64,000 nucleotides of DNA from a virus (IMGVR_UViG_3300028833_000064:121389-185388), one strand, 5' to 3'. Shown: positions 12,171-24,888, counted from the stretch's first letter. The notes: generated from the sequence alone by a model not told the origin. Made by a program: numbers and translations.

Positions 12171-12488
12171 AAATTGACAGAATTTCTTCAAGTTTTTCAT
12201 TTTTTGTTCTGACTTGTGTCGACAAACTTGTGTATCGGTAAATACTTTCATTTGGCTCTGTCAAACCGTCCAAAAAAACTACCACAACTCCGGCCTCTCT
12301 TCAGCATCCTTTTGAAGTCTTATGAGTCTTCGATTCTCGACAGGACACCACTCCCAAAGAAAGTGTTTTAGAGCTCATTATACACAATCTATCGAGGAAG
12401 AATCTGCTTCGGATGCATCGTGGGTTAGCCCCTACCACGGGTAGAATGTTTTTCGTCACACATACCATTGACGTTAGCGAAACTGTTT

Positions 12489-12562
12489 GCATGACTCGGG
12501 GACTCGAACCTCCATTTCCACAGTTGGACCCGTGGTGTTCTACCAAATTGAACTATCGCCAC
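12489..12562 (-). pseudogene. degenerate tRNA (anticodon unclear)
   Basis: D and T loops present; acceptor stem and anticodon loop irregular. Confidence 0.5.
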
Positions 12563-12589
12563 TAGACGAGGTTTTGGACACCTCGTTTG

Positions 12590-12733
12590 TGATAATGGGT
12601 GGATTCGAACCACCATAGTCAAGAGTCTTTTCATCTCAGTCAAGTATAAACCATGCTATCGTGGATAGTCTATATGACTTTCAAACGATTACTCATTAAT
12701 CTTGTAGTACATCCCATCTACTTCACACTATCA
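12590..12733 (-). ncRNA. tRNA-like RNA with non-tRNA interior
   Basis: TGATAGTG/CATTATCA terminal stem and GGTGG-TTCGAAT-CCACC T arm. Confidence 0.55.
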
Positions 12734-12740
12734 TATTTTG

Positions 12741-12879
12741 CAGAAGTGGGAGGATTCGAACCACCATCTACGGTTTTGTGGTTAAATATCAATCTCTTGA
12801 TAGATAACCTCGAATTAAAGGCTCTCACAGGACCTCACCCTGTATGGAGACCGTTATTCTACCATTGAACTACACTCCT
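12741..12879 (-). tRNA. tRNA-Trp(CCA) with ~68-nt insert in anticodon loop
   Basis: ACGGT-CT-CCA|insert 12777-12844|AA-ACCGT; remainder is a canonical 71-nt tRNA. Confidence 0.8.
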
Positions 12880-12968
12880 ATGGGGTGCTATGCCTTTTTA
12901 ACACCTTGTTTCATTTTACCAAATAGAAACTTTGATTCAATGTGAATCAGGAAATGCTTACATCTTGT

Positions 12969-13074
12969 TACGACACTGAGATTCGAACTCTAAACCACTT
13001 TACCCATTTAAGGGAGTTATCTGACCGTCGCCAGCCCCAGCATTGGGAGTGTGCTACCATTACACCATATCGTA
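12969..13074 (-). ncRNA. Gln-type tRNA body with expanded anticodon arm
   Basis: TACGATA/TGTCGTA acceptor, TGGTGTAATGGTAGCAC D arm, T arm; extra sequence in anticodon arm. Confidence 0.55.
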
Positions 13075-13080
13075 ATTTTG

Positions 13081-13154
13081 GGTGGTAAGTGGGGCTCGAA
13101 CCCACACTTCCGGTTCCACAGACCGACGTGCTAGCCATTAACACTATAACCACC
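13081..13154 (-). tRNA. tRNA-His(GTG)
   Basis: G-1, loop CT-GTG-GA. Confidence 0.9.
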
Positions 13155-13159
13155 ATATA

Positions 13160-13744
13160 TTATTTTGTAATCTTCTTTCTAAAAAATCTCTTCGATTCTT
13201 TATTTAGAGAACCAAAATTTTCTGTTAAACTATGACAATTTGGACATAATAATTCCAAGTTTTCTATCAAATTGTTTGTACAATCACCATCTTTATGATG
13301 AATCTCAAGAGGAACTGTGTTTGAATATTCATTCATCTCACCCCAACCACATTTTTCACAATGATTGTTGTGTAATTCCATCATATATCTTTTAATAAAT
13401 TTTGGAATTTGACCAACACCAGATTGAAAGTTTTCACCATTCAACCACCTTTTAACTCTCTCTTTATATTGATATTCACTTTGACAAACATTTGAACAAA
13501 ATTTTTCACCTCTATTCAACTCTTTACCACAATTCAAACAATATCTTTTTTTACAATTGCCTTTATTGAAGGTTTCCTTTTCATTTATCTTTCGTCTTGT
13601 TTCAAGTTCAATACCAAGTTTCTTTGCAATCTTTTTGATATTGTTACCAGAACAACCATATATTCTTCCAATTTCGGAATAAGATTTCTTTTGAAATTGT
13701 ATCAAATCTACGAGAGTATCTTTTTCATCGTCCCATTTACTCAT
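13160..13744 (-). CDS. free-standing HNH homing endonuclease
   Basis: N-terminal HTH, CLNC..FCSNVC Zn finger, CEKC...LEIHHKDGD..NN..ENLELLCPNCH. Confidence 0.9.
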   Translation of the reverse strand: MSKWDDEKDTLVDLIQFQKKSYSEIGRIYGCSGNNIKKIAKKLGIELETRRKINEKETFNKGNCKKRYCLNCGKELNRGEKFCSNVCQSEYQYKERVKRWLNGENFQSGVGQIPKFIKRYMMELHNNHCEKCGWGEMNEYSNTVPLEIHHKDGDCTNNLIENLELLCPNCHSLTENFGSLNKESKRFFRKKITK

Positions 13745-13788
13745 AAACGAACCTTTTCATTGTATAAAGTATTTATGAAAGTTCGTTT
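13745..13788 (-). promoter_or_regulatory. start-occluding hairpin containing a late-promoter-like TAAATA
   Basis: AAACGAAC-TTTCAT...ATGAAA-AG-GTTCGTTT directly before ATG. Confidence 0.65.
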
Positions 13789-13819
13789 CATTTAATGTCA
13801 TCATATCTGTAAATTTTGT

Positions 13820-13891
13820 TGCCACAGTTGGACTCGAACCAACGACCACCTGTATATCCGACAGGTGCTCTATCCTGCTGAGCTATGTGAC
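13820..13891 (-). tRNA. tRNA-Ile(GAT), atypical (G33)
   Basis: CCTGT-CG-GAT-AT-ACAGG. Confidence 0.65.
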
Positions 13892-13985
13892 AGACGACAG
13901 TTGGCCAAATTGTCGTCAAAACATAAAATTAAGTCCTAATGAACCGTCACGTGTTTCGGTTTTTCGAAAATAACCCTATGAATCG

Positions 13986-14059
13986 TACCGGTGGGTGGAT
14001 TTGAACCACCGAATGCAGCCTTATGAGAGCTGTGTCTTAGACCACTTGACGACACCGGC
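13986..14059 (-). tRNA. tRNA-Met(CAT)
   Basis: CAGCT-CT-CAT-AA-GGCTG. Confidence 0.85.
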
Positions 14060-14066
14060 ATTATTG

Positions 14067-14188
14067 AGCAGACGACAGGAGTCGAACCTGTAAAAGACTG
14101 TTTTTGAAAATTGCTGTTTTATTCTTTATCAGTCTTTACCAAGAATACTTCTACTGACAGTTGTGTTTACCAATTCCACCACGTCTGC
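14067..14188 (-). tRNA. tRNA-like (Leu-CAA-like) with ACAGCAA-module insert
   Basis: ACTGT-C|insert ~14108-14155|T-CAA-AA-ACAGT; short variable arm. Confidence 0.6.
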
Positions 14189-14196
14189 ATTGTTTG

Positions 14197-14278
14197 TGCC
14201 GAAGGTGGGACTCGAACCCACACCCCCTCACGGGGACTTGCTCCTAAGACAAGCGTGTCTGCATTCCACCACTTCGGC
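14197..14278 (-). tRNA. tRNA-Leu(TAG)
   Basis: cloverleaf with long variable arm. Confidence 0.9.
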
Positions 14279-14285
14279 AAATTAG

Positions 14286-14459
14286 TGGAGTTATGTGGAT
14301 TCGAACTTCATCTTCCAAACATCCATCAATGTTCCTTTGACAAATGTAAGGTCTGACGAAGGGGGAAAAGTTTTATAAAACCCCCACACCCTCTCCTGTA
14401 ACAATTTTGTACACAACCATTACAGACAGCTTCCAGCCCGTTTAAGAGACCTTAACCCC
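14286..14459 (-). ncRNA. 174-nt RNA with alanine-type acceptor (tmRNA-like ends)
   Basis: GGGGTTA/TAACTCC-A gives G3:U70 and A73; TTCGAAT T loop. Confidence 0.5.
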
Positions 14460-14470
14460 GTTTTTTTTTG

Positions 14471-14542
14471 AGCAGGTGATGGTAATCGAAACCACATATC
14501 CAGCTTGGAAGGCTGGCATACTAACCATTGTACTACACCTGC
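14471..14542 (-). tRNA. tRNA-Gly(TCC)
   Basis: cloverleaf, U73. Confidence 0.9.
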
Positions 14543-14555
14543 TTGTTAAATATAC

Positions 14556-14696
14556 AAGAACCAACCGGACTCGAACCGGCACTGACTGTCGTATTAAAAC
14601 CTTTCGGTCTACCGTCCTACATTTACAAGGGACTCACCCCTTTCCAGTACTCATACAATTCGTGGCGAGAGTATACCGATTCCCCCTCACAGTCCT
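14556..14696 (-). ncRNA. tRNA-like RNA with large structured domain replacing the anticodon arm
   Basis: acceptor AGGACTG/TGGTTCT, D arm, GCCGG-TTCGAGT-CCGGT. Confidence 0.55.
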
Positions 14697-14706
14697 TGTC
14701 TATTTG

Positions 14707-14783
14707 TGTTGCTGGTTGGATTCGAACCAACGACCTTCTGTGTATCAGACAGATGCTCTAAAAACCAACTGAGCTACAGCAAC
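14707..14783 (-). tRNA. tRNA-Ile(GAT)
   Basis: TCTGT-CT-GAT-AC-ACAGA. Confidence 0.8.
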
Positions 14784-15197
14784 ATTACATTACTCACCCA
14801 ACCTGACATACATTGGATTTGGATTATCAGCCGTTCCGTGAATGAAATCAAAATCTTCCATCAATTCTGCCATAATTGTTTTTGTTTAAAGGTTTAACAT
14901 TAAAAATTTGTGCCTTCGTGGGTGCTGCCCCTAACTTTTCAGCCACATACCCTCTAACCGGTTCGGATTTATCACAACTTATTTCCGGATTTCCATTGTT
15001 ATTCACCAAACCGTCGGGACCCCAAGCACTACTGCAGATGTCTTGAGGCTCTCGTCACTAACTTACGAGAATAAACCGGCATGTTAATACAGAGCCAAGT
15101 TGCTATCTTGGAACGAATTTGTATGTTCTCACCTGGCGACCACAGCGACTCGCCTTCCAAAACAGTATCGTTATTGCATTTAACAACTTCTGTATAG

Positions 15198-15499
15198 TGG
15201 GCAGGGAGGGACTTGAACCCCCAGAGTCCTTTCGGACAACAGATTTCAATGATATTGGTATCACTCGACTATGTAATTACCTTGCATTTCTGTTTAGGTA
15301 CTCCGTATATAGTCTGTACACATTTATGAAGTTTCCTTCAATTTAGCTCGGCGTTGATTTGCTTTATTTTACGTGGTGCAAACTTTCACCGAATTAGCGG
15401 AGTTTTTCAATTTGCATTTCTACAAAAAGCTGCATTACCACGTGTAAACCAATTTTTAGTCAACAGTCTGTCCCGCTACCAATTACGGTTTACCTACCC
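15198..15499 (-). tRNA. tRNA-Tyr(GTA) with group I intron
   Basis: ACAGA-CT-GT|intron|A-AA-TCTGT; long variable arm. Confidence 0.88.
15247..15462 (-). mobile_element. group I intron (216 nt, no ORF)
   Basis: exon ends in U, intron ends in G; P7 elements CAGACTATA and ATAGTC; AATTCGGTGAA / CGCCGAGC core. Confidence 0.85.
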
Positions 15500-15573
15500 A
15501 TTTAATTTATTTTATTTTTTTTTACCTTGTCCGTTTTTTCTTGGTTTATATATAGTTCTTCCGATTATTTTTG

Positions 15574-15647
15574 TGGGACCGAGCCGATTTGAACGGCTAC
15601 CTCCAGATTTTCAGTCTGGCGTGACACACCAGTTACACCACAGTCCC
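15574..15647 (-). tRNA. tRNA-Phe(GAA)
   Basis: CCAGA-CT-GAA-AA-TCTGG. Confidence 0.88.
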
Positions 15648-15682
15648 AATTTGAGGTTTTTGATGAACCTCTTAACATTTTG

Positions 15683-15804
15683 TCGGGAGGGCAGGACTCG
15701 AACCTACGACCACGGCTACCCAAAAGCTATTAGAAAACGTTGCTGTTTGATTCTTTATCAAGAATCTATCATTTACGTGCTCTAACCAACTGAGCTACCT
15801 CCCG
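15683..15804 (-). tRNA. tRNA-Pro(TGG) with 48-nt insert at 28/29
   Basis: CG|15728-15775|GCT-TT-TGG-GT-AGCCG; removal gives a 74-nt cloverleaf. Confidence 0.8.
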
Positions 15805-15816
15805 TACTTAAAAAAA

Positions 15817-15905
15817 GCAGACCTGCTTACCAACTACTTGACCGAGGGCTGTCTCCCCTTTCGAGGGGCCTTCGTTGGTGGACTTGAACCACTCCAATAT
15901 CTGCC
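15817..15905 (-). ncRNA. permuted tRNA-mimic (Y RNA/YrlA-like order) candidate
   Basis: terminal GCAGAT/GTCTGC stem enclosing a T arm, then a closed hairpin, then D-loop-like AGTTGGTA. Confidence 0.45.
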
Positions 15906-15908
15906 ATT

Positions 15909-15976
15909 GTGAAATGTGATGGGACTTGAACCCATGACCTCCCCTCGGCGCTCTAACCACTGAGCTACACAATCAC
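15909..15976 (-). ncRNA. anticodon-less tRNA
   Basis: canonical D and T arms; anticodon arm reduced to CC-GAG-GG. Confidence 0.6.
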
Positions 15977-16128
15977 TTCCGAATCACACGGAATATGGTT
16001 CTTTTCAGTACCAATAACCTTGTTTCCACCACTTGGGTCAGGAACATACCCACGTCTATTACTACCAAGACGCCTAATCCCATCTTTTTTCTATCGCCCT
16101 TCAGGGAAAGGGCTTTCACATGTGAGAG

Positions 16129-16202
16129 TGGACCACGATGGGATTCGAACCCACGACTTTCTGACTGCCAGTCAGACGCTCTACCAACTGAGCTACGAGC
16201 CC
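16129..16202 (-). tRNA. tRNA-Ala(GGC)
   Basis: G3:U70, loop CT-GGC-AG; bulged acceptor. Confidence 0.8.
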
Positions 16203-16209
16203 ATGAAAA

Positions 16210-16299
16210 TTGAGTTGTTTAAGGTCTAACTCAAGACTAACGACCGGGGCGATTGTCATCGATTCCACCATCCGATTTTATATGACATCGGAAAACGTT
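16210..16299 (-). repeat. structured RNA repeat, copy 1
   Basis: shares AACGTTTTCCGATGTC..ATAAAATCGGATGGTGGAA and TAAACAACTCAA with 16424..16521. Confidence 0.7.
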
Positions 16300-16301
16300 A
16301 G

Positions 16302-16420
16302 CGGAGAGAGTGGGACTCGAACCCACGACTACGGTCGTGACAGGACATTGAAAACATTGCTGTATGATTCTTTTTCAAGAATACTCTATTTACGTGTTCT
16401 ACCAACTGAACTATCTCTCC
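16302..16420 (-). tRNA. tRNA-Asp(GTC) with 46-nt insert at 28/29
   Basis: CG|16347-16392|GTC-CT-GTC-AC-GACCG; removal gives a 73-nt cloverleaf. Confidence 0.8.
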
Positions 16421-16423
16421 GTT

Positions 16424-16521
16424 TTGAGTTGTTTAAAGTCCAACCCAAACGACTAGGGCTTGCCGGTTTGAATCCGACGAGCAGTTCCACCATCCGATTT
16501 TATCCGACATCGGAAAACGTT
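16424..16521 (-). repeat. structured RNA repeat, copy 2
   Basis: see copy 1. Confidence 0.7.
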
Positions 16522-16523
16522 AA

Positions 16524-16585
16524 CAAGAATCCATAGAATACAAAATTAAAAGTTTTGTCCTGATAATATTGCTGTACGATTCTTT
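16524..16585 (-). ncRNA. free-standing ACAGCAA-module RNA carrying a Lys(UUU)-like anticodon stem-loop
   Basis: AAAGAATC-GTACAGCAA...ACAAAA-CTTTTAA-TTTTGT...GATTCTTG. Confidence 0.65.
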
Positions 16586-16587
16586 AG

Positions 16588-16662
16588 TGGGGAATGAGGG
16601 ACTCGAACCCCCGACTTTCTGAATGTAAGTCAGATACTCTGAACCGACTGAGTTAATTCCCC
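16588..16662 (-). tRNA. tRNA-Val(TAC)
   Basis: cloverleaf. Confidence 0.9.
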
Positions 16663-16672
16663 GACATCTTAG

Positions 16673-16746
16673 TGGACACAGGTGGGAATCGAACCCACGA
16701 CTACCTGTTTGCAAAACAGGAGTTCTACCAACTGAACTACTGGCCC
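16673..16746 (-). tRNA. tRNA-Ala(TGC)
   Basis: cloverleaf, G3:U70. Confidence 0.85.
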
Positions 16747-16759
16747 AAATTAATATCAG

Positions 16760-16844
16760 TGCCCAAGACAGGACTTGAACCTGCACTCCCTAAACGGGAA
16801 CCAGCCCCTCAAGCTGGTGTGTCTACCAATTCCACCACCTGGGC
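16760..16844 (-). tRNA. tRNA-Leu(GAG)
   Basis: cloverleaf with long variable arm. Confidence 0.9.
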
Positions 16845-16860
16845 ATATTGCTTTCATTTG

Positions 16861-16932
16861 TTGTCCTATCAGGTTTCGAACCTAAAACTTCAGAGCCAGA
16901 ATCTGACGTGTTACCTATTATACCATAGGACA
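16861..16932 (-). tRNA. tRNA-Gln(CTG)
   Basis: cloverleaf. Confidence 0.9.
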
Positions 16933-17045
16933 ATTTTACAAAACCTAACCAAACCTTGATTAATGTCGTGAGCTTTGATTATACACACACGTCCGATTTC
17001 CACGGATATTTACACTCTTAACCAGTTTGGTACCGGTTTTGTATG

Positions 17046-17116
17046 TTGTCCTACTTGGACTCGAACCCAGAATTCTTCATCCAAAATGAAGCGTGTTACC
17101 GTTACACCATAGGACA
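17046..17116 (-). tRNA. tRNA-Gln(TTG)
   Basis: cloverleaf. Confidence 0.9.
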
Positions 17117-17127
17117 ATGTTATCTCA

Positions 17128-17165
17128 AATAAAAAATCTCACACTTTCGAAAGAATGTGTGAGAT
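17128..17165 (-). terminator. intrinsic terminator inside the tRNA island
   Basis: ATCTCACAC-ATTCTTTCGAAA-GTGTGAGAT-TTTTT. Confidence 0.65.
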
Positions 17166-17226
17166 GTTGGATATATGTTGAGATTAAAATGTGTTTCTAA
17201 AAAATCTTACAAATGATACAAACAAA

Positions 17227-17322
17227 TCACACAACTATGGACACAAATAGGATAATCGCCATCTGATAAAACCAGTAGACGAGTCCTGTTTTAAATCCCT
17301 TATGTTGTTTATTTGTATTCAT
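17227..17322 (-). CDS. 31-aa small ORF / possible leader peptide
   Basis: MNTNKQHKGFKTGLVYWFYQMAIILFVSIVV*, preceded by CATAAATA, followed by terminator. Confidence 0.4.
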   Translation of the reverse strand: MNTNKQHKGFKTGLVYWFYQMAIILFVSIVV

Positions 17323-17353
17323 ATCTTCGTTATTTATGTAAGTTTCTTTTCTA

Positions 17354-17890
17354 TTATTTATGTAAATTAATTTCGTATGGTTTTATTGAGCGTTTAACTC
17401 TTGCACCGCTTCCATACATAAGACTATCTGCAAGTGTATTTCCGACTTCTGGAAAACCATAACGTCTTTTGTTGTTTAACTGGTCAATATCTGGTTTAAG
17501 TTCCTTTATTTGTATAACTACGGAATACACAACCACTTTACTATTTGGATAACTCAACTCTCCGAAAGTTTTTGCAGAATCTGGATACACAGAAAGATAT
17601 ACATATCCACATTCAGACTGAAAACTTTTTTTCCTTTTTAGACTTGTTGTCAAAATACCCTTATCCATTATAGGATTATTTTCACTTGTACCATGATAAA
17701 GTCTTATATAGTCTTCCTTGTGTCTTCTCAACCATCTGTTAAATTCATCAACAAGTTTTTCGTTATATTCACCATTGAATGAAGTGAAGAACTTAGAAGT
17801 TTCCTCATCATCTAAGACATCGTATGTCTTTGGTTCTCTATAACTACCATAGTATAATTCATTAATAAACTCATCAAACTTTTTAATCAT
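17354..17890 (-). CDS. ADP-ribosyltransferase-fold (Tpt1/KptA-like motif) protein with capsid-targeting-like N-terminus
   Basis: LYHGTS...I..KGI...GYVYLS...A..FG; N-terminus MIKKFDEFINE. Confidence 0.6.
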   Translation of the reverse strand: MIKKFDEFINELYYGSYREPKTYDVLDDEETSKFFTSFNGEYNEKLVDEFNRWLRRHKEDYIRLYHGTSENNPIMDKGILTTSLKRKKSFQSECGYVYLSVYPDSAKTFGELSYPNSKVVVYSVVIQIKELKPDIDQLNNKRRYGFPEVGNTLADSLMYGSGARVKRSIKPYEINLHK

Positions 17891-17924
17891 ATTTCTGTTT
17901 GCTTTATTTATTTATGAATTTTTG

Positions 17925-17998
17925 TACTCCGGACGGGACTCGAACCCGTAATCTCCACCGTGAAAGGGTGGTGTCCTAACCAATTAGACGACCGGAGC
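17925..17998 (-). tRNA. tRNA-Glu(TTC)
   Basis: cloverleaf. Confidence 0.92.
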
Positions 17999-18065
17999 AT
18001 AGTTGTACCGATATCGCTCGATACGGGCGGGTGAAAAATCACCATCTTGCCAGGTCGGGTTTTTG

Positions 18066-18138
18066 TCGGGTAAAGAGGACTCGAACCTCCGACCCCTTGG
18101 TCCCAAACCAAGTGCTCTACCAACTGAGCTACTACCCG
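18066..18138 (-). tRNA. tRNA-Pro(TGG)
   Basis: cloverleaf. Confidence 0.92.
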
Positions 18139-18144
18139 ATTATT

Positions 18145-18655
18145 ACTAAAGTGTGTTGTGAATGCACTTATAGTCTAACACATAACCTATTTCAGTGTAT
18201 TCCAAAGCGAATATCTTTTTCAAATGCCGATAACCTCTCCCCACTATACTGCACATAAACGTATCAAGGGTTATTTAACACTGTGCTGTGTTGAGGTATC
18301 AAACACTATCAAGGACTAACCATTTGTGTGTTTTTCTTCACACCAACATCACTTTAGGGAAACATTCCTCTAACTATTCTTTCCCGTTCTCGGTCGCTTC
18401 CAATTCCGATATTAGGTAGTTGTCTTACATCACCTGAACATCCGGTCGACAACGGGGCGAGCATAAATTTTCCGGATATCTTTTCCAAACTTTCATTGTT
18501 TATAGGAACAACATTTGGGTTTCGGGTTTCACTTATTCAGGCTCCGATTGAGTAATAATAGAGCGTGAACGTGAACATTTCATGTATATAATACTATAAT
18601 TTCTCTGCCTATAACACCTCGGATGAAAATTCCGAGCCCTATTCCTTATAGTATT
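18145..18655 (-). ncRNA. large structured ncRNA candidate (~500 nt)
   Basis: no credible ORF, many hairpins, between tRNAs. Confidence 0.4.
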
Positions 18656-18658
18656 TTG

Positions 18659-18731
18659 TGGACCCACTGGGAATCGAACCCAGACTTAAGGCTTGCAAAG
18701 CCCTCGTGCTTGCCGTTATCACTATAGGCCC
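18659..18731 (-). tRNA. tRNA-Ala(TGC)
   Basis: cloverleaf, G3:U70. Confidence 0.85.
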
Positions 18732-18897
18732 ATATAGAAAGACTTTTTGACACAAATTTCTCAAATCTGACTAAGAGAAGTAACAATGTTTGCATACCAA
18801 GATTCTTTAACCCCCAAAGTGGGATTTTTCAAAATTTGTGCCGGACGGTCTTATCTTCGTCCAAGGGGTACAAACCGGAGAAAATTACCGGAGAAAT

Positions 18898-18957
18898 ACC
18901 GAGGTTAATTGAAACGTTTACTTTATGTATTTGTAAATCGTTGCTGTTTGAATCTTT
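18898..18957 (-). ncRNA. degenerate ACAGCAA-module RNA
   Basis: AAAGATTC-AAACAGCAA; closing stem imperfect. Confidence 0.4.
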
Positions 18958-18971
18958 AACAAACAATATTG

Positions 18972-19043
18972 AGCCGATGGAGGGATTTGAACCCCCGACC
19001 TGATGCTTACAAGGCAACTGCTCTACCCCTGAGCTACATCGGC
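18972..19043 (-). tRNA. tRNA-Thr(TGT)
   Basis: cloverleaf. Confidence 0.9.
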
Positions 19044-19048
19044 ATTTA

Positions 19049-19109
19049 CAAGGTTCACTTTTATGAGTCGAACATAATATAACCAAAAATAGTTGCTGTA
19101 TGAACCTTT
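19049..19109 (-). ncRNA. free-standing ACAGCAA-module RNA carrying a T-arm
   Basis: AAAGGTTCA-TACAGCAA...TTATG-TTCGACT-CATAA..TGAACCTTG. Confidence 0.65.
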
Positions 19110-19224
19110 AATTTAGTGAGCAATGAGCAGTCTCCCACTCAAAACCCAATTTCCTCTTTTGGAAAGCCTGAGAACTTAGGCAAAGTTGTCACCATTACAC
19201 GATAGTTGGACATCGTTGTTCACA

Positions 19225-19938
19225 GTATGTATTTCTACATCCTAGGTGACATGTGCTTCAGTTTTGTGAAAACTGACAAACTCTTACTGCTTGATATCGT
19301 AGATTTCCGTTCTCCACCGACCGTCCTGCATAAGACTTCTGAAGATGCCTCCTCATTGTTCGATGATTACTTGTACTTTCTTGTCTTCAACCTTGCAAGT
19401 CTCCGACACCCCCGTGTTACAGAGGGACAAGCACATTTTCTACCAAACAGTGTCGTGCTCTTTTGCTTTTTTTCAAAAATAAAAAATAATTGAATCTTAG
19501 CCTTTTTGATAACTGTTTTTAGAAAGATGTGGCACGACTTTGGTCATTCCTACCTTTTGAGTAAGACCCAACCAACACCTTTCTATGTTTCATCGTTCCC
19601 CAACGACTCCACATTCTCCGTTTCGTTCCATACAATTTCTCATACAGAACTAATCCTTTGTAATACTTGCAATTGATAGGGAAATCTTTCACAAGTACCT
19701 GCTAAAGACATCTATTGTACTTTCATACTCAAACCAGGTTTTACCCGATTGTCATCTGCTTCATCCTCATCATTTGACATTGGATTTCCCACAGACAACG
19801 TGCCCTAGCACTTTTCAACAGATTGCATCTTTCGATACAACGCCACATCCCGTTTATCTCGGATATGACTTTATCCCATTGCTGGATTATCCTTTGGTCA
19901 AGTCCGAAGACTTAACACTGGTTCTGAAAGCGAACCTT
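19225..19938 (-). ncRNA. very large structured ncRNA, GOLLD-like candidate
   Basis: ~700 nt purine-rich, hairpin-rich, no credible ORF, in a phage tRNA array; family assignment from size/context only. Confidence 0.45.
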
Positions 19939-19943
19939 TTTTG

Positions 19944-20016
19944 TAGCGGGGGGTGGATTCGAACCACCGACCTTCGGGTTATGGGCCCGACGAGCTGGCC
20001 TCTGCTCCACCCCGCT
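19944..20016 (-). tRNA. tRNA-fMet(CAT), initiator-like
   Basis: three consecutive G-C pairs in anticodon stem, GGAGCAG D arm. Confidence 0.85.
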
Positions 20017-20030
20017 ATGTTTCATTTTAG

Positions 20031-20103
20031 CGGGAACAGTAGGGTTCGAACCTACGACCATCACCTTAACAGGGTGCCGCTCTACCAGCTGAGCTATGTT
20101 CCC
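20031..20103 (-). tRNA. tRNA-Asn(GTT)
   Basis: cloverleaf. Confidence 0.9.
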
Positions 20104-20130
20104 AATTACCAATACTTGTTACCAAACTAG

Positions 20131-20208
20131 CGGTACAAGAGGACTCGAACCTCTGGTCTCCAACGTCCGTAAGGTCGTTGACGTTCTTCCCCATTAAACT
20201 ATGCACCT
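20131..20208 (-). ncRNA. atypical tRNA with extended anticodon arm
   Basis: TCAACG-ACCTTACGGA-CGTTGG; D and T arms present. Confidence 0.5.
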
Positions 20209-20267
20209 GGACTTCCTATCATCATTGTGACTTGACCGGTATTCACAACTACTTTCAAAAATCTTAG

Positions 20268-20340
20268 CGGTCCATACGGGACTCGAACCCGTGTCGCCGC
20301 CGTGACAGGGCGGTATGCTAAACCACTACACCAATGGACC
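20268..20340 (-). tRNA. tRNA-Asp(GTC)
   Basis: cloverleaf. Confidence 0.92.
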
Positions 20341-20377
20341 ATTTCTATTTATGAAAAAGTTTTTTTAGGAAATTTTA

Positions 20378-20449
20378 CAAGGTTCACTTTTTTATCTTGG
20401 CATCTGAAATATGGTTCGGATTAGATTTTTTATTGCTGTATGAACCTTT
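20378..20449 (-). ncRNA. free-standing ACAGCAA-module RNA
   Basis: AAAGGTTCA-TACAGCAA...TGAACCTTG. Confidence 0.65.
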
Positions 20450-20458
20450 AAATGTGTA

Positions 20459-20525
20459 CAAGAATCTTTTCCTGAGTCATTCAAAAACACTGAATTTCAT
20501 AGAAATTGTTGCTGTATGATTCTTT
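20459..20525 (-). ncRNA. free-standing ACAGCAA-module RNA
   Basis: AAAGAATC-ATACAGCAA...GATTCTTG. Confidence 0.65.
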
Positions 20526-20618
20526 ATCTACACGATTTCCTTATTTATTATTTTTCCCTAACAATATAAATATAACAAAAAATTCAAGAAATTTTAATTT
20601 TTTTGAATTTTTTTTTTG

Positions 20619-20690
20619 AGCAGATGAGCAGAATCGAACCGCCATCTCCAGCTTGGCAAGCTGATGCACTAACCATTGTGCTACATCTGC
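20619..20690 (-). tRNA. tRNA-Gly(GCC)
   Basis: cloverleaf. Confidence 0.88.
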
Positions 20691-20698
20691 ATAAAAAG

Positions 20699-20785
20699 CG
20701 GAGAGGGAGGGATTCGAACCCCCGGAGGCTGTTACACCCCAACGGTTTTCAAGACCGCCACCATAAGCCACTCGGCCACCTCTCC
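20699..20785 (-). tRNA. tRNA-Ser(TGA)
   Basis: cloverleaf with long variable arm. Confidence 0.9.
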
Positions 20786-20910
20786 AATTGTCGTTTCTGT
20801 CTTTGTTGCAGAAGACTAACGACTGTGTGGAAACTGTCTCCTGACATACGATGCAACTCTACGTATATCTACTGAACGTGATGACAACCACAATCCTTCA
20901 CGTGAATTTG

Positions 20911-21029
20911 TCGGGTGGAGGGGAATCGAACCCACTGTCACGGCTACCAAAAAGCAAAGAACGTATTGCTGCAAGATTCTTTCACAAGAATCAAATAAAT
21001 ACGTGTCCTAACCACTAGACGACCACCCA
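20911..21029 (-). tRNA. tRNA-Gln(TTG) with 46-nt insert at 28/29
   Basis: CG|20956-21001|GCT-TT-TTG-GT-AGCCG; removal gives a 73-nt cloverleaf. Confidence 0.78.
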
Positions 21030-21031
21030 AG

Positions 21032-21118
21032 CGGAGAGGGAGGGATTCGAACCCCCGAGCCCCTTACGGGACTACCGGTTTAGCAAACCGGGGCATTCGG
21101 CCACTCTGCCACCTCTCC
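21032..21118 (-). tRNA. tRNA-Ser(GCT)
   Basis: cloverleaf with long variable arm. Confidence 0.9.
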
Positions 21119-21424
21119 AAATTTGTGTGTCTTAACACGGATTACCACACATTTAATGAAATTTCGGAGTCTCCTTCGGCCGTATCTTCCAGTGCATGTC
21201 CTATCTGATTGGGTTTGAATATGCTCTCAAATACCCACAGAGTCAAAAGACCAACGTATCGCTATCTGACATCGAATAAGACTGTATTCTTATAACCAGC
21301 TTGTACTTTATGTTCCATCCACGTTGGTATCGTAACACAAAGGGAGTTTGTAGTCATTAGCATCGGACAAACCAAACCTTTCCGAAAATTAATCCGATGA
21401 CTGGGAGCGGCCCAGCGATTTTTG

Positions 21425-21497
21425 TGCCATCGAAAGGAGTCGAACCTATATACATTGGGTTTTTAACCCAATCACTCTACCATTGAGTTACGACGAC
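21425..21497 (-). tRNA. atypical tRNA, apparent anticodon AAA (Phe)
   Basis: ATTGGG-TT-AAA-AA-CCCAAT (6-bp stem). Confidence 0.5.
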
Positions 21498-21519
21498 ATT
21501 TACCATCGTTTTGGTACGA

Positions 21520-21850
21520 TGGTGAGAACCTGCCCTTAAAGACATTGGTCTAAACTACCACCGATTAGGCGGCAGCGAGCATCACCATGTTATTGGTGTT
21601 GTTATTGTAGTTGCCATTTACTGACAAGATGAGTCTCTACACCTTTCATACTTATACAGTATCAAATCCAAGTCATCCCCGTGTTACCTTGGCGGTTCGG
21701 TCTCGTATAGACCGCCCAAGGTTGAGTGTTCTGCTATTTGTATCGGACTTACAATTGATACCGAAGTCAGGGCGAACACTGAATAAACTGGTGGAGATGT
21801 TGGGGTTCGAACCCAAGTCTACCATACTTTCCTAAAAGTTTCAAACGAAA
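21520..21850 (-). ncRNA. ssrA: circularly permuted two-piece tmRNA
   Basis: acceptor piece ...GACTTGGGTTCGAACCCCAA-CATCTCC-ACCA (ends 21789) precedes coding piece GGGGATG-ACTTGGATTTGA (starts 21680); tag 21615-21565 GNYNNNTNNMVMLAAA*. Confidence 0.85.
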
Positions 21851-21858
21851 CCCATTTG

Positions 21859-21900
21859 TGATGTCACGGGAATCGAACCCGTCGTTATTCCAAAAACATC
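21859..21900 (-). ncRNA. tRNA minihelix (acceptor stem + T arm only)
   Basis: GATGTT/GACATC-A with ACGGG-TTCGATT-CCCGT. Confidence 0.5.
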
Positions 21901-21941
21901 TGATTCTATTTATGTTTTTTTATTTTCGAAATTTTTTTTAG

Positions 21942-22015
21942 TACTGACGGATGGGCTTGAACCATCGACCCCCATCTTATAAGGATGGTGCTCTAACCGA
22001 CTGAGCTACGTCAGT
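21942..22015 (-). tRNA. tRNA-Ile(TAT)
   Basis: CCATC-CT-TAT-AA-GATGG. Confidence 0.88.
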
Positions 22016-22282
22016 ATTTTGTTGAACATCACACCGGAACTCCCTTTGGTAATTGCTTAATGGATATTCCACTTTATCCATCCAACACTTACTGTGTTGT
22101 TGTTGGTTATCTGTTCCGATTACAAGCAGCACACTTGATGATGTGGAAGAAAAGTCTTACTTTGTTCACGGTTATTTGCCATTCACCATTACTCCAACCG
22201 TACCGACTACCTATCAGCAATCGAGGTTTTACGTCAGTCGTATTGACCCATTTGATAAGACATCCTGTGATTTCCAACATTG

Positions 22283-22356
22283 TGGTCCTGGAGGGACTTG
22301 AACCCCCGACCCGCTGATTATGAGTCAGCCGCTCTAACCAACTGAGCTACAGGACC
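22283..22356 (-). tRNA. tRNA-Ile2/Met(CAT)
   Basis: GCTGA-CT-CAT-AA-TCAGC, Ile2-like body. Confidence 0.85.
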
Positions 22357-22368
22357 GATTATGTTTTG

Positions 22369-22705
22369 TACTCCGAGTGGGACTTGAACCCACACGCCCT
22401 TTCGGGCAACAAATTTTCATACCACACTTACTTTTACATAAGCCATCTACTTGAGATGTTGTAGTCTGGACTATTTCTTAACCATGCCTTTCGGTTTAGG
22501 TCTCCACCTATATAGTCTCTACGCCATTTACACATTTCTGTGCTTTAGAGAGTCATCGCCAAAGATTATGTCACCACAATCGAGGTTTCTGTTTGTTAGG
22601 GCAGATTCTACATCCCAACAATTAATCTTGTTGTTTTCTCTTTTCAGAAATGGATGCACTCTTTTTTATCAAAGTCTGTCGTGTCTACCATTCCACCACC
22701 GGAGC
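22369..22705 (-). tRNA. tRNA-Leu(TAA) with group I intron
   Basis: ACAGA-CT-T|intron|AA-AA-TTTGT; long variable arm. Confidence 0.88.
22418..22671 (-). mobile_element. group I intron (254 nt, no ORF)
   Basis: U| 5' junction, terminal G, GAGACTATA and ATAGTCC P7 elements. Confidence 0.82.
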
Positions 22706-22718
22706 AGATTTACTTAGT

Positions 22719-22836
22719 ACTCAAGTGGGAGTCGAACCCATGGAAATACATCCCCCCAATGACTTTGTTCCCAAGCCACCAAAGCACACGAGTCTGTGTA
22801 CGGGCAGCACGTCGTCCCATTGTCATCACTTGAGTA
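22719..22836 (-). ncRNA. tRNA-like RNA with non-tRNA interior
   Basis: TACTCAAG/CTTGAGTA stem, TGGG-TTCGACT-CCCA T arm. Confidence 0.55.
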
Positions 22837-22839
22837 TCT

Positions 22840-23379
22840 CATCCGTTGTATATTCCGAAGGAATGTCGATGTTTATCCCTTATTATTTTTCCATCGACTC
22901 ACATTCGGGTCGTGATGTTTCCATTCAGAAAACACAACAGACGATTTTGAGAATTTTTCTTCACTCAATCGGATTGGCCTAACCCGAAAAGCAAAGGCGA
23001 CCTTTATAGACATTTAGAGGAATCTTTCATATGGGTTGTACACCCCACCACCTTCTTTCATTTTATTGGTGGTCTCTCCCTCATTTAGTTCGGTCATAAC
23101 ATTCTTCATGGTGAGGTTGATTCTTGGTTTAACGTCTTCCACAAGTCACGGACGTATGGCTTAGGAATGGAATCTCCACTCTACCTCAACATACGGATTG
23201 GATTTCTATGCCCTATAGGGCAAAACCTTAATCCCCTGTGTTTAAACACATATTTTCTCTCTCCTGGGGATACTCGATTTTACGAGTGTACCATTTGAAG
23301 AAGATGACACGATTTGGGTCACATTTCTCATTTACCATCTATAACACCCACATGGGTAGGAAGAGGGTTTGAACCGTCG
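22840..23379 (-). ncRNA. large structured ncRNA candidate (~540 nt)
   Basis: no credible ORF, hairpin-rich. Confidence 0.4.
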
Positions 23380-24219
23380 TCAGATGGTGTAACGGCAATT
23401 CCGGAATGAAGTTTCTTCGTTAAAACCGTGCTTTCTTATTTTCAGGAGATTCTCACTCCATTCTTTTGATTTACGGCCTTGTATAATTTCGTGAAGAAGA
23501 CCCTCTTCTTTTTCGAGTTTCTCCCTTTTTTTCTCTCTCACGGACTTCTTGTAGGCGGAATCACGCTCATATCTTGCCCGTGAGTATTCGGGAGTTTTCT
23601 TTCCGAACTCTATAACTTCACCATCAATGACGGGATGAGCCTTTCGACATAGTTCGACAGGTAAAGGATAGAAAGACACCATTTTCGAAATTTTTTCGTA
23701 CTCTTGTGGCGTTATCGTCTCGGTGAAAAGACGATGTAGTCTGTCCTTTCCAATCTTTTTTTCTAGACTCAAGATTTCAGTCTTGGTGAAGTTCTCCACA
23801 TTAAAGGTATATCCTGTCACAACTCTATTGTCAATGAAAGCTTTTTGCACTTTTTTGTGAAACATTGAGACTCTCTCATTTTTGGTGATATTTCCGACTT
23901 CATCAACAACATATTCGTTGTATTTTGAATGTGGATGTGTAATAGGATAAAGTTCTGAGTGTATCAAGAAATAACCGTCATAACCATATCCGAATTTTTC
24001 ACGGATGTTATGGTTGAGGGTTCGTCGACACTCACCGTAGTTTTCTCCGACATGTTTTTCCCAAAATCTGTTGATATAGGAGAAAACATTACTTCTACGA
24101 CACCACTTCTTCTCATAAAAGTCATAGAAATCACCATTTTTTTTACCGCTGTAACAGAATGTGTCCTTTGTGCAGGATGCATGTTGTACGGATTCTTCGT
24201 TTTTTTTAATTTTTTTCAT
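23380..24219 (-). CDS. basic hypothetical protein in the tRNA island
   Basis: 279 aa ORF, K/R-rich C-terminus. Confidence 0.7.
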   Translation of the reverse strand: MKKIKKNEESVQHASCTKDTFCYSGKKNGDFYDFYEKKWCRRSNVFSYINRFWEKHVGENYGECRRTLNHNIREKFGYGYDGYFLIHSELYPITHPHSKYNEYVVDEVGNITKNERVSMFHKKVQKAFIDNRVVTGYTFNVENFTKTEILSLEKKIGKDRLHRLFTETITPQEYEKISKMVSFYPLPVELCRKAHPVIDGEVIEFGKKTPEYSRARYERDSAYKKSVREKKREKLEKEEGLLHEIIQGRKSKEWSENLLKIRKHGFNEETSFRNCRYTI

Positions 24220-24281
24220 AGTATTTATCCTTAGTGTTATATACTTCGGATAAAACTAGAATTATAAATTTCGTGATTCAT
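24219..24281 (-). promoter_or_regulatory. uORF (MNHEIYNSSFIRSI*) plus start-sequestering hairpin
   Basis: uORF 24281-24237; TAGTTTTATCC pairs with GGATAAATACTA(TG). Confidence 0.5.
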
Positions 24282-24310
24282 TTTTTTTACTTTTTAAACG
24301 TTAATATTTG

Positions 24311-24395
24311 TGCCCAAGGTGGGACTCGAACCCACACCCCCTCAACGAGGACAACATTTTGAGTGTTGAGTGTCTACCAATTCCACCACTTGGAC
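24311..24395 (-). tRNA. tRNA-Leu(CAA)
   Basis: cloverleaf with long variable arm. Confidence 0.9.
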
Positions 24396-24400
24396 ATTTG

Positions 24401-24473
24401 AGCCCCATACCGGATTCGAACCGGCGACCTACTGCTTACGAGGCAGCCGCTCTACCGGCTGAGCTAACGGGGC
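24401..24473 (-). tRNA. tRNA-Thr(CGT)
   Basis: cloverleaf. Confidence 0.9.
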
Positions 24474-24480
24474 AAAAACT

Positions 24481-24578
24481 AGGGAAGTGAATGGGATTGA
24501 ACCCGTATCATCCGACATGCACACGCTCTGAAAGAAGTGCAAGTCTCAGATTTCACCCCCTGACGACCATTATTCCCC
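24481..24578 (-). ncRNA. tRNA-like RNA with long acceptor and long central arm
   Basis: GGGGAA../..TTCCCT ends, GGGTTCAATCCC T arm. Confidence 0.4.
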
Positions 24579-24652
24579 AAAGGTGATTTGTCGTCAATAT
24601 ATCCTTATCTCCAATATGTCAAAGAACTTTTGGAACTTTCGTTCCTCAATTT

Positions 24653-24684
24653 CAAAGATACTATTCTTTTTTGATTTTTTCAAA
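24653..24684 (-). promoter_or_regulatory. Bacteroidota-type promoter driving the tRNA island
   Basis: TTTG-N19-TATCTTTG. Confidence 0.65.
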
Positions 24685-24718
24685 AAGATTGCATCTTTTT
24701 TGAAATCTTTTTTTTTTG

Positions 24719-24793
24719 TACCCCGTACAGGATTCGAACCTGTGACCTATGACTTAGAAGGACATCGCTCTAATCCTACTGAGCTAACGGGGC
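24719..24793 (-). tRNA. tRNA-Arg(TCT)
   Basis: cloverleaf. Confidence 0.88.
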
Positions 24794-24888
24794 ATATTTT
24801 TATCTCATCAGATTAAATATAACAAAAAATCTGAAAAAATTATTTTTTCAATGTACTCTCGTGATTTTCTTTCATGGTTTAAAAGATA

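What the first reader, a model, noticed from the sequence alone, without database searches (positions are those of the whole stretch)
16524..20525. The same module as free-standing small RNAs in circularly permuted form with variable payloads
Seen: five 60-72-nt units (16524, 18898 degenerate, 19049, 20378, 20459) start AAAG(AA/GT)TC-..ACAGCAA and end GA(TT/AC)CTTG. The closing stem covaries (AAGAATC/GATTCTT versus AAGGTTC/GAACCTT). This is the tRNA insert with its strands in the opposite order, so the loop position carries a payload: a whole tRNA in the embedded copies, a tRNA fragment or other sequence here. Inference: a modular ncRNA family with a constant handle and swappable tRNA-derived cargo.
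Basis: partly seen in the sequence, partly recalled or inferred. Interest (0 to 1): 0.85.

Follow-up and report, generated by a model that had tools for sequence, protein, structure and literature searches.

The report
Phage Y-like RNAs with tRNA-part cargo
Five small RNA genes in a phage's tRNA cluster share one conserved "handle" (an end-to-end stem plus the word ACAGCAA) around different tRNA-like pieces. The handle travels with a Ro60-shaped ring protein and sits on that protein's own mRNA leader, so these are most likely an undescribed kind of Y RNA rather than introns.

Summary
Four units lie exactly where stated, on the minus strand: 16524-16585, 19049-19109, 20378-20449 and 20459-20525. 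The "degenerate" fifth is really a 160-nt unit, 18798-18957, with a perfect closing stem.

- **Family membership.** A covariance model built only from unrelated phages finds the four short units (E 6e-7 to 5e-6). It finds one further copy in the 185-kb genome, 16 nt upstream of a DUF2828/DUF7788 gene.
- **Partner protein.** That protein folds like Ro60. DUF2828 occurs in 18 of 23 handle-bearing viral records and in 0 of 24 controls.
- **Cargo.** It includes a Lys-UUU anticodon-arm mimic that recurs in nine phages with a fully covarying stem, and a T-arm mimic.
- **Embedded form.** The same handle, as a closed hairpin, interrupts four tRNA-shaped genes.

Best reading (0.62): these are Y-RNA-like partner RNAs of a phage Ro60-like protein, displaying tRNA parts. 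Binding itself is inferred. A cut-and-ligate (intron or permuted-tRNA) cassette remains possible (0.12).

The handle is not in Rfam, and I found no paper on it. This scan has noted the same handle before in at least 62 other genomes.

The parts
16524..16585 (-). Free-standing unit a (62 nt). 5' strand 16578-16584, GTACAGCAA 16569-16577, payload with an anticodon-arm mimic (6-bp stem, loop CTTTTAA = Lys UUU) at 16540-16558, 3' strand plus G at 16524-16531. It starts 2 nt after tRNA-Val (16587-16662).
   Evidence: sequence; R1 hit at E 4.8e-6; anticodon-arm covariation across 9 phages; fold z -2.07.
18798..18957 (-). Free-standing unit b (160 nt, not 60 nt). AAAGATTC-AAACAGCAA, a long structured payload, then closing GAATCTTG. 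It starts 13 nt after tRNA-Thr (18971-19043).
   Evidence: The closing stem and two payload hairpins are conserved in relative L147 despite indels. Fold z -2.25. R1 misses it because of the long insert.
19049..19109 (-). Free-standing unit c (61 nt). The payload holds a T-arm mimic, TTATG-TTCGACT-CATAA, at 19061-19077. The unit ends 5 nt before tRNA-Thr and lies 55 nt downstream of a GOLLD-like RNA.
   Evidence: R1 hit at E 6.4e-7; fold z -2.65; T arm conserved in L147.
20378..20449 (-). Free-standing unit d (72 nt), the second of a tandem pair. Its payload hairpin is conserved in relative L192.
   Evidence: R1 hit at E 2.6e-6; fold z -2.48.
20459..20525 (-). Free-standing unit e (67 nt), the first of the tandem pair, 9 nt upstream of unit d. 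The payload hairpin has a 7-nt loop.
   Evidence: R1 hit at E 1.8e-6. The fold z of -0.36 is not significant on its own.
15740..15766 (-). Embedded (permuted) handle: hairpin GATTCTTG-AT-AAAGAATC plus AAACAGCAA inside tRNA-shaped gene 15683-15804. The 48-nt insert lies between nt 28 and 29 of the anticodon stem. The remaining arm reads Pro UGG.
   Evidence: my reading of the cmscan alignment and the sequence.
16357..16383 (-). Embedded handle inside tRNA-shaped gene 16302-16420, at the same 28/29 position. The remaining arm reads Asp GUC.
20966..20992 (-). Embedded handle (variant TTGCAGCAA) inside tRNA-shaped gene 20910-21029, at the same 28/29 position. The remaining arm reads Gln UUG.
14111..14148 (-). 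Embedded handle with a 13-nt hairpin loop inside tRNA-shaped gene 14067-14188. Here the insert sits in the anticodon loop.

Best explanation
The five units are genes for small non-coding RNAs of one family.

- **Transcription and release.** They are transcribed with the tRNA array and released by the tRNA-processing cuts at their flanks. This is inferred from their positions.
- **Fold.** Each folds so that its two ends pair into a 7-9 bp stem, shown by covariation. The adjoining (A/U)UACAGCAA stays single-stranded.
- **Handle and partner.** Stem plus ACAGCAA is a constant handle, most likely the docking site of the phage's Ro60-like ring protein. That protein is DUF2828+DUF7788, 521 aa, at genome 23410-24975 on the minus strand, about 113 kb from unit a. 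The arrangement is analogous to the terminal stem of Y RNAs on Ro60. This step is inferred.
- **Payload.** The variable payload projects from the particle and displays tRNA parts: a Lys-UUU anticodon arm in unit a, a T arm in unit c, and other hairpins in b, d and e.
- **Role.** The displayed parts probably recruit or trap proteins that recognise tRNA, such as host anticodon nucleases or the phage's own RNA end-healing, ligase and CCA enzymes at 25996-38914. This is speculative.
- **Embedded copies.** The hairpin copies inside four tRNA-shaped genes are the same handle grafted onto whole tRNA bodies.
- **Leader copy.** A minimal copy on the 5' leader of the protein's own gene would allow feedback control. 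This is inferred.
For: 1. **RNA family.** Model R1, built from unrelated phages, finds exactly five copies in the whole 185-kb record: four units of this finding and one at genome 24992-25031 on the minus strand. Stems covary widely. In a test that does not use pairing for ascertainment, 13 of 102 motif hits have the exact reverse complement downstream, against 0-2 in controls. Tandem arrays of up to 8 units have entirely different stems.
2. **Position of the fifth copy.** The only copy outside the array lies 16 nt upstream of the ATG of the DUF2828/DUF7788 gene.
3. **Co-occurrence.** DUF2828 is present in 18 of 23 handle-bearing viral records, including 6 of 6 that are at least 90% complete. 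It is present in 0 of 24 control records (0 of 7 complete). Fisher p = 7e-9.
4. **Adjacency elsewhere.** Handles lie within 400 nt upstream of the DUF2828 ORF, on the same strand. This holds in the own genome, its 89%-identical relative L217 (variant word ACAGCAG, seen by eye) and five divergent phages: L219, L220, L222, L224 and L227. In L227 the unit encloses the start codon. Degenerate copies occur in L218, L221 and L226.
5. **Fold of the protein.** The AF2 model has pLDDT 83.6 and pTM 0.79. The top 13 PDB matches are all full-length Ro60/TROVE structures: Thermus phage phiLo, Xenopus, human and D. radiodurans, with E 6e-9 to 5e-5 and TM 0.43-0.63. The sequence profile hits only TROVE/Ro60 chains, weakly. 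D311, S313 and S315 are invariant, which matches a vWA MIDAS DxSxS motif. There is a weak vWA_Ro60 Pfam hit.
6. **Cargo.** The Lys-UUU arm mimic has an invariant loop CTTTTAA and compensatory changes at 5 of 5 stem pairs in nine phages. About 25 units carry T arms, and two hold whole permuted tRNA bodies with a closed acceptor, which is the YrlA topology.
7. **Precedent.** Ro60-associated bacterial and phage Y RNAs mimic tRNA and are encoded near Ro60. M. smegmatis YrlA is cut by RNase P and receives CCA (PMC4201824). Thermus phage Ro60 binds two phage Y-like RNAs (PMC12135203).
Against: - No binding data exist. The link rests on co-occurrence, adjacency and fold.
- The controls were not matched by phage clade, so part of the co-occurrence may be shared ancestry.
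- Three relatives of the protein at 50-64% identity have no handle in their short leaders. Four divergent loci have a different leader hairpin. The leader copy is therefore not universal.
- Five handle-bearing records show no DUF2828. All five are fragments, 7-39% complete.
- The handle lacks the GNCGAAN0-1G/CGAA motif of known Ro60-binding Y RNAs. The protein does not match Pfam TROVE.
- In three tRNA-shaped genes, removing the insert would restore a perfect anticodon arm. That is also what an intron would look like.
Confidence: 0.62

Rival explanations
1. Cut-and-ligate cassette. The handle marks an intron-like element. In tRNAs it is excised and the halves are joined by the phage's RNA end-healing and ligase enzymes. 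In the permuted, free-standing form the payload is released and circularised, or, for permuted tRNAs, joined at the anticodon arm and then opened at the acceptor end.
For: - Removing the 46-48-nt inserts at 15683-15804, 16302-16420 and 20910-21029 restores perfect 5-bp anticodon stems with 7-nt loops carrying U33 and a purine at 37.
- Units in L018 and L057 hold complete permuted tRNA bodies, one with an encoded CCA.
- The window encodes a CCA-adding enzyme, two RNA_ligase-family proteins, an AAA_33 kinase, a metallophosphoesterase and a weak 2H/CPD match.
Against: - The distances from the handle to the would-be splice sites differ even between close relatives: 7-9 nt on the 5' side and 6-13 nt on the 3' side. 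No bulge-helix-bulge or other shared junction motif is present.
- Applied to unit a, the analogous cuts would leave an 18-19-nt hairpin that cannot close into a circle.
- In L127 and L188 no excision yields a normal anticodon loop.
- The RNA ligase PF09414 is not universal in handle-bearing phages: 10 of 23, and 4 of 6 complete genomes, against 4 of 24 controls, p = 0.06.
- A splicing signal has no reason to sit on the DUF2828 mRNA leader.
- Each interrupted tRNA has an uninterrupted isoacceptor in the array.
Confidence: 0.12
2. The RNA family is real but has a different partner or purpose. The handle might be a recognition or processing element for another factor, such as a nuclease, the CCA-adding enzyme or a ligase, or simply a stabilising clamp. 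Under this reading the link to DUF2828 reflects shared phage lineage.
For: - Controls were not matched by clade.
- The terminal 7-bp stem with an unpaired 3' G resembles an acceptor stem with a discriminator base.
- Units abut tRNAs, so tRNA-processing enzymes must act at their ends.
- Leader copies are absent in several DUF2828 loci.
Against: - The only copy outside the array in 185 kb sits on the DUF2828 leader.
- Adjacency recurs in divergent phages whose DUF2828 proteins are only 21-48% identical to this one.
- 6 of 6 complete handle-bearing genomes carry the gene.
Confidence: 0.14
3. A small self-cleaving ribozyme present in circular permutations, as hammerhead and twister ribozymes are.
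For: The permuted topologies (open or closed stem) and the location in phage tRNA arrays resemble those of known small ribozymes.
Against: - No Rfam ribozyme family matches, even at E up to 5 with permissive filters.
- Only one helix and seven unpaired bases are conserved. Everything else varies freely, which is too little for any known catalytic core.
- Payloads as short as 13 nt still keep the handle.
Confidence: 0.04
4. A DNA-level element, such as a miniature inverted-repeat transposon, a recombination site or a promoter, whose inverted repeats are copied rather than selected for pairing.
For: The terminal inverted repeats and multiple copies resemble such elements. A count of G.U against A.C mismatches did not discriminate between strands.
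Against: - All copies share the orientation of the tRNA genes.
- Stems differ between neighbouring units yet always match within a unit.
- The cargo makes sense only as RNA: anticodon arms with a covarying stem and an invariant loop, and T arms.
- There are no target-site duplications or transposase genes.
- The promoter scan was at chance level.
Confidence: 0.03

Closest known systems
YrlA-type Y RNAs with Ro60/Rsr in bacteria and mycobacteriophages (Rfam RF02553; Chen et al. 2014, PMC4201824)
   Same: - Small RNAs whose 5' and 3' ends form a stem that serves as the protein handle.
- A variable module that mimics tRNA: T arm, D arm and closed acceptor in the L018 and L057 units.
- Genes often next to the ring-protein gene, and several different RNAs per genome.
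- The partner has the Ro60 ring plus vWA fold.
   Different: - The handle is stem plus unpaired ACAGCAA, not GNCGAAN0-1G.
- There is no RF02553 match on any unit.
- The protein is DUF2828/DUF7788 and does not match Pfam TROVE.
- Cargo is often a single tRNA arm (Lys anticodon arm, T arm) rather than a T+D+acceptor domain.
- Copy number is much higher, with tandem arrays of up to 8.
- The handle also occurs inverted as a hairpin grafted into otherwise normal tRNA bodies.
Thermus phage phiLo Ro60 with Yrl1/Yrl2 (PMC12135203; PDB 9KOP, 9L5Y)
   Same: A phage-encoded Ro60-fold protein, the best structural match to this one (E 6e-9), with phage-encoded partner RNAs located upstream of its gene.
   Different: - phiLo Ro60 is a recognisable TROVE protein.
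- Its RNAs carry the CGAA motif in a stem-bulge-stem.
- Sequence identity to the protein here is about 13%.
Permuted and intron-containing tRNA genes processed through bulge-helix-bulge splicing (Cyanidioschyzon merolae, Archaea; reviewed in PMC4090602)
   Same: - The same element appears as an insert at non-canonical tRNA positions and, with its strands swapped, flanking 3'-half-then-5'-half tRNA genes.
- RNA ligase genes are nearby.
   Different: - No bulge-helix-bulge motif is present, and no splicing endonuclease gene was seen.
- Junction distances are variable.
- Most free units carry no tRNA that could be reconstituted.

Membership tests
Stem+ACAGCAA handle RNAs (undescribed family, defined here by model R1 from 35 units of unrelated phages) | Significant match to a covariance model that contains no sequence from this phage or its close relatives | tested here: met
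   Four units score 38.8-42.8 bits, E 6e-7 to 5e-6, at the exact stated coordinates. The 160-nt unit is missed because of its long payload, but it has the exact handle.
Stem+ACAGCAA handle RNAs | Terminal 7-bp stem kept by compensatory change | tested here: met
   There are three stem variants in the window and more than 20 elsewhere. The non-circular test gives 13/102 against 0-2/102. In alignment A2 the stem is 100% paired, although that stem was used to pick the units.
Stem+ACAGCAA handle RNAs | Co-occurrence with a DUF2828/DUF7788 gene in the same genome | tested here: met
   The own genome has the gene, with a handle on its leader. Across records the count is 18/23 against 0/24.
YrlA-type Y RNA (RF02553) | Match to the Rfam model at or above the gathering score (69 bits) | tested here: not met
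   Only 21-28-bit matches were found, all overlapping ordinary tRNAs. None falls on a unit.
YrlA-type Y RNA (RF02553) | GNCGAAN0-1G motif on the 5' strand of the terminal stem (PMC4201824) | tested here: not met
   The sequences of units a-e have (A/G/T)(A/T)ACAGCAA instead.
YrlA-type Y RNA (RF02553) | tRNA-like domain with T arm, closed acceptor stem and D arm | tested here: not met
   Among the window's free units, only unit c has a T arm and only unit a an anticodon arm. The full domain occurs in family members L018(+)6063 and L057(-)1028.
YrlA-type Y RNA (RF02553) | Bound by a Ro60 orthologue | not testable with these tools
   Only co-occurrence, adjacency and fold similarity of the candidate partner are available.
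Ro60/TROVE proteins (for the candidate partner) | Pfam TROVE (PF05731) match | tested here: not met
   No match in the own genome. The protein matches DUF2828 and DUF7788.
Ro60/TROVE proteins (for the candidate partner) | HEAT-repeat ring plus C-terminal vWA domain with a MIDAS motif | tested here: met
   Full-length Foldseek matches go to 13 Ro60/TROVE structures and to nothing else below E 1e-3. D311, S313 and S315 are invariant.
tRNA introns (bulge-helix-bulge type or group I) | Bulge-helix-bulge at both junctions, or a group I core | tested here: not met
   By inspection no 3-4-3 bulge-helix-bulge can be drawn. Inserts of 46-48 nt are too short for group I, and no Rfam intron family matches.
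Small self-cleaving ribozymes in Rfam (hammerhead, twister, twister-sister, pistol, hatchet, HDV-like) | Match to a family model | tested here: not met
   No match at E up to 5 in 11500-26000.

The most novel reading that the evidence does not exclude
The phage builds a set of Ro60-like particles, each displaying a different tRNA part. The most frequent cargo is an exact copy of the tRNA-Lys(UUU) anticodon loop on a free stem. These particles would act as programmable decoys or sensors for host anticodon nucleases, working together with the adjacent RNA end-healing and ligase genes. tRNA-Lys is the target of PrrC and of the PARIS effector (from my own knowledge). New specificities would arise simply by swapping the cargo between constant handles.
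Probability: 0.22. Interest if true: 0.9.

Novelty: new variant of a known kind. Interest (0 to 1): 0.72.

Why it matters
If the handle is bound by the DUF2828 protein, this defines a large, undescribed branch of Ro60/Y-RNA biology.

- **Scale.** More than 7,000 database proteins match this DUF2828 protein, all unnamed. The partner RNAs number from a few to a dozen or more per phage genome.
- **Defined cargo.** The function of the tRNA-like part of bacterial Y RNAs is a long-standing open question. Here the cargo is reduced to single, identifiable tRNA arms. The best example is a covarying stem with an invariant Lys-UUU loop. This makes the question directly testable: what binds a displayed anticodon arm?
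- **Annotation.** tRNA-shaped phage genes "with introns", and permuted tRNA-like genes, may not be tRNAs at all.
- **Tool potential.** A compact handle of about 25 nt that tolerates any payload is also a candidate tool for tethering RNAs to a ring protein.

Tried and rejected
- **Rfam.** At gathering and at E up to 5, no family matched any unit.
- **Known phage records.** A blastn search matched only through the tRNAs.
- **First viral scan.** With a 14-base pattern most hits were chance. The real ones were sorted out by the downstream complement.
- **Splice-site ruler.** I looked for fixed distances from the handle to the would-be splice sites and rejected the idea, because the distances vary among relatives.
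- **Junction motifs.** Bulge-helix-bulge or shared junction motifs were not found by inspection.
- **Permuted tRNAs in the window.** ARAGORN on doubled payloads found none in the window's units and found them only in L018 and L057.
- **Strand test.** The G.U against A.C count was 6 against 4 and does not discriminate.
- **Promoter and terminator scan.** Results were at chance level.
- **Protein modelling and TROVE.** Single-sequence AF2 of the protein was useless (pLDDT 44.7). The model with an alignment was good. Single-sequence phmmer against the PDB found nothing meaningful. Pfam TROVE is absent in the genome.
- **RNA ligase as universal partner.** Only weakly enriched.
- **Leader copy in closer DUF2828 relatives.** Absent in L243, L245 and L246.
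- **Weak motif at 19879-19895.** This copy, at the 5' side of the GOLLD-like RNA, has no closing strand and is not counted.
- **Literature.** Searches on DUF2828, permuted tRNA with phage, phage tRNA introns, and Ro60 with decoys found nothing on this family.

Full report
**Setting.** The window is the last 64 kb of a 185,388-bp viral record. Between about 12.0 and 25.3 kb the minus strand carries more than 35 tRNA genes, a permuted tmRNA and a GOLLD-like RNA. Everything in the finding lies on this strand.

**Observation.**
- The 17-nt word AAAG(R)(W)TC-(R)TACAGCAA has 12 matches with up to 3 mismatches, against 1.8 expected. Ten are on the minus strand, and all ten lie inside the array.
- Four units are exactly as described: 16524-16585, 19049-19109, 20378-20449 and 20459-20525. 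Each ends with the reverse complement of its own first stem strand, followed by G.
- The fifth unit starts at 18957 but closes only at 18798-18805, with GAATCTTG. This gives a 160-nt unit and a third stem variant. The close relative L147 keeps this stem around a payload with large indels.
- The same handle, with its strands swapped and joined by a 2-13-nt loop, interrupts four tRNA-shaped genes.
  - In three of them (15683-15804, 16302-16420, 20910-21029) the insert lies between nucleotides 28 and 29 of the anticodon stem. What remains reads as Pro UGG, Asp GUC and Gln UUG arms.
  - In 14067-14188 the insert lies in the anticodon loop.

**Is it a family, and is the stem real?**
- A scan of viral contigs for the 5' word alone returned mostly chance hits. 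Yet 13 of 102 hits had the exact complement of their own 7-mer within 200 nt downstream. Controls using a reversed word, the upstream side or a wrong central dinucleotide gave 0-2.
- Relaxing the stem sequence revealed tandem arrays of up to eight units. Their stems are completely different but always self-complementary, and each is followed by NNACAGCAA.
- About 100 units from some 30 contigs give this consensus: (A/U)AAGRCWC on the 5' side, then WUACAGCAA, then a free payload of 13 to about 140 nt, then GWGYCUU-G.
- Model R1 was built from 35 such units and excludes this phage and its close relatives. It finds the four short units at their exact coordinates (E 6e-7 to 5e-6) and nothing else significant in the window.
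- The handle is absent from Rfam 15, even at E up to 5.

**Cargo.**
- Unit a carries a 6-bp stem with the loop CTTTTAA. This is the same loop as the phage's own tRNA-Lys(UUU).
- The same loop on different stems sits at the same place in units of eight other phages. I selected these units only for having the loop word. All five stem pairs show compensatory changes and 93% of cells are paired, against 32-48% when the pairing partner is slid.
- Unit c carries a T arm that is conserved in L147.
- Elsewhere about 25 units carry T arms, and others carry anticodon-arm look-alikes for Ser, Asn, Ile, Phe and Cys.
- Two units (L018, L057) hold whole circularly permuted tRNA bodies with a closed acceptor stem.
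- Units b, d and e carry hairpins that are conserved in relatives but that I could not assign.

**Partner.** I first weighed an intron or processing reading. Earlier notes of this scan then pointed to a Ro60-like DUF2828 protein. I treated that as a lead and tested it.
- The genome has one DUF2828+DUF7788 gene of 521 aa, about 113 kb from the array.
- R1 finds exactly one copy of the handle outside the array in the whole record. It is a 38-40-nt minimal unit ending 16 nt upstream of that gene's ATG.
- DUF2828 is present in 18 of 23 handle-bearing viral records, including 6 of 6 that are at least 90% complete. It is present in 0 of 24 control records taken from the chance hits of the same scan. 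Fisher p = 7e-9.
- Handles lie within 400 nt upstream of the gene in seven of the loci examined:
  - the own genome;
  - its 89%-identical relative L217, which has the variant word ACAGCAG;
  - five divergent phages, one of which encloses the start codon.
  - Three further loci carry degenerate copies.
- With a 39-sequence alignment, AlphaFold gives pLDDT 83.6. The 13 best PDB matches are all full-length Ro60/TROVE structures, led by the Thermus phage phiLo Ro60.
- The vWA MIDAS residues are invariant.
- The RNA ligase family PF09414 is only weakly enriched: 10 of 23 against 4 of 24.

**Interpretation.**
- The best-supported reading is a Y-RNA-like system. A terminal stem plus ACAGCAA docks a Ro60-fold ring protein, and a variable module displays tRNA parts. 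The known precedents are YrlA RNAs and the phiLo Yrl RNAs (PMC4201824, PMC12135203).
- It is not a member of the YrlA family. The Rfam model, the GNCGAA motif and the Pfam TROVE match all fail.
- Binding, the leader's feedback role and the purpose of the cargo are inferences.
- The most attractive guess for the cargo is decoys or tethers for tRNA-directed nucleases and repair enzymes. This rests on the Lys-UUU arm and the neighbouring genes for CCA addition, RNA ligation, a kinase and a phosphoesterase.

**Rivals.**
- A cut-and-ligate cassette explains the perfect anticodon arms left after removing the inserts, and it explains the permuted tRNAs. It is weakened on four counts:
  - the junction distances are variable;
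  - no junction motif is present;
  - some units are too small to circularise;
  - a copy sits on the DUF2828 leader.
- Ribozyme and DNA-element readings have little support.

**Caveats.**
- The controls were not matched by clade.
- Several DUF2828 loci lack a leader copy.

**Novelty.** The held literature has nothing on DUF2828 in phages or on this handle. This scan has noted the same handle in at least 62 other genomes.

Noticed in passing
window 19165-19583 (-): A GOLLD-like large RNA: RF02032 at 85 bits, E 3e-21, full model length but below the 150-bit gathering score. It lies directly upstream of unit c and tRNA-Thr, and the same order is kept in relative L147.
   Followed up: no
window 21565-21851 (-): A permuted two-piece tmRNA (RF04321, 68 bits). 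ARAGORN gives the tag GNYNNNTNNMVMLAAA. In relatives of the DUF2828 protein, an SmpB gene lies just upstream of DUF2828 (L243, L245).
   Followed up: no
window 15911-15974 (-) and 15805-15910 (-): A 64-nt tRNA-like gene whose anticodon arm is reduced to 4 nt (RF00005, 46.9 bits). Next to it is a permuted tRNA mimic with T arm, closed acceptor-like stem and D-like loop, but without the ACAGCAA handle.
   Followed up: partly
window 12741-12879 (-): A tRNA-shaped gene (RF00005, 50.8 bits) with an insert of about 68 nt after the anticodon region. The insert does not contain the ACAGCAA handle, so it is a different kind of insert.
   Followed up: partly
window 16421-16523 (-) and 16203-16301 (-): A repeated element of about 100 nt, starting AACGTTTTCCGATGTC and containing ATAAAATCGGATGGTGGAA, follows both unit a and the interrupted tRNA at 16302-16420. 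It folds into several hairpins and has no Rfam match.
   Followed up: partly
window 25996-38914 (-): A cluster of RNA end-processing genes. It comprises a CCA-adding enzyme (25996-27432), an RNA_ligase family protein (28327-29004), a weak 2H/CPD match (29346-29759) and a PHA02142 OB-fold protein (30982-32559). It also holds a metallophosphoesterase (33264-33737), an AAA_33 kinase (34927-35472) and a second, weak RNA_ligase match (38234-38914). A C5 DNA methylase lies at 33942-34946.
   Followed up: partly
window 13160-13744 (-): A gene for an HNH endonuclease with a zinc ribbon sits inside the tRNA array.
   Followed up: no
L127(-)3090 and L188(-)810: tRNA-shaped genes of another phage carry the handle in the anticodon region, flanked by a short helix formed by the two insert arms. 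No simple excision gives a normal 7-nt anticodon loop, which argues against an intron there.
   Followed up: partly
L012, L201, L202: A hairpin plus GTACAGCAA with a 13-nt loop, followed by a terminator-like hairpin, recurs in three proviral or viral contigs that have no tRNA context. L012's record has no DUF2828. This may be an unrelated look-alike.
   Followed up: no
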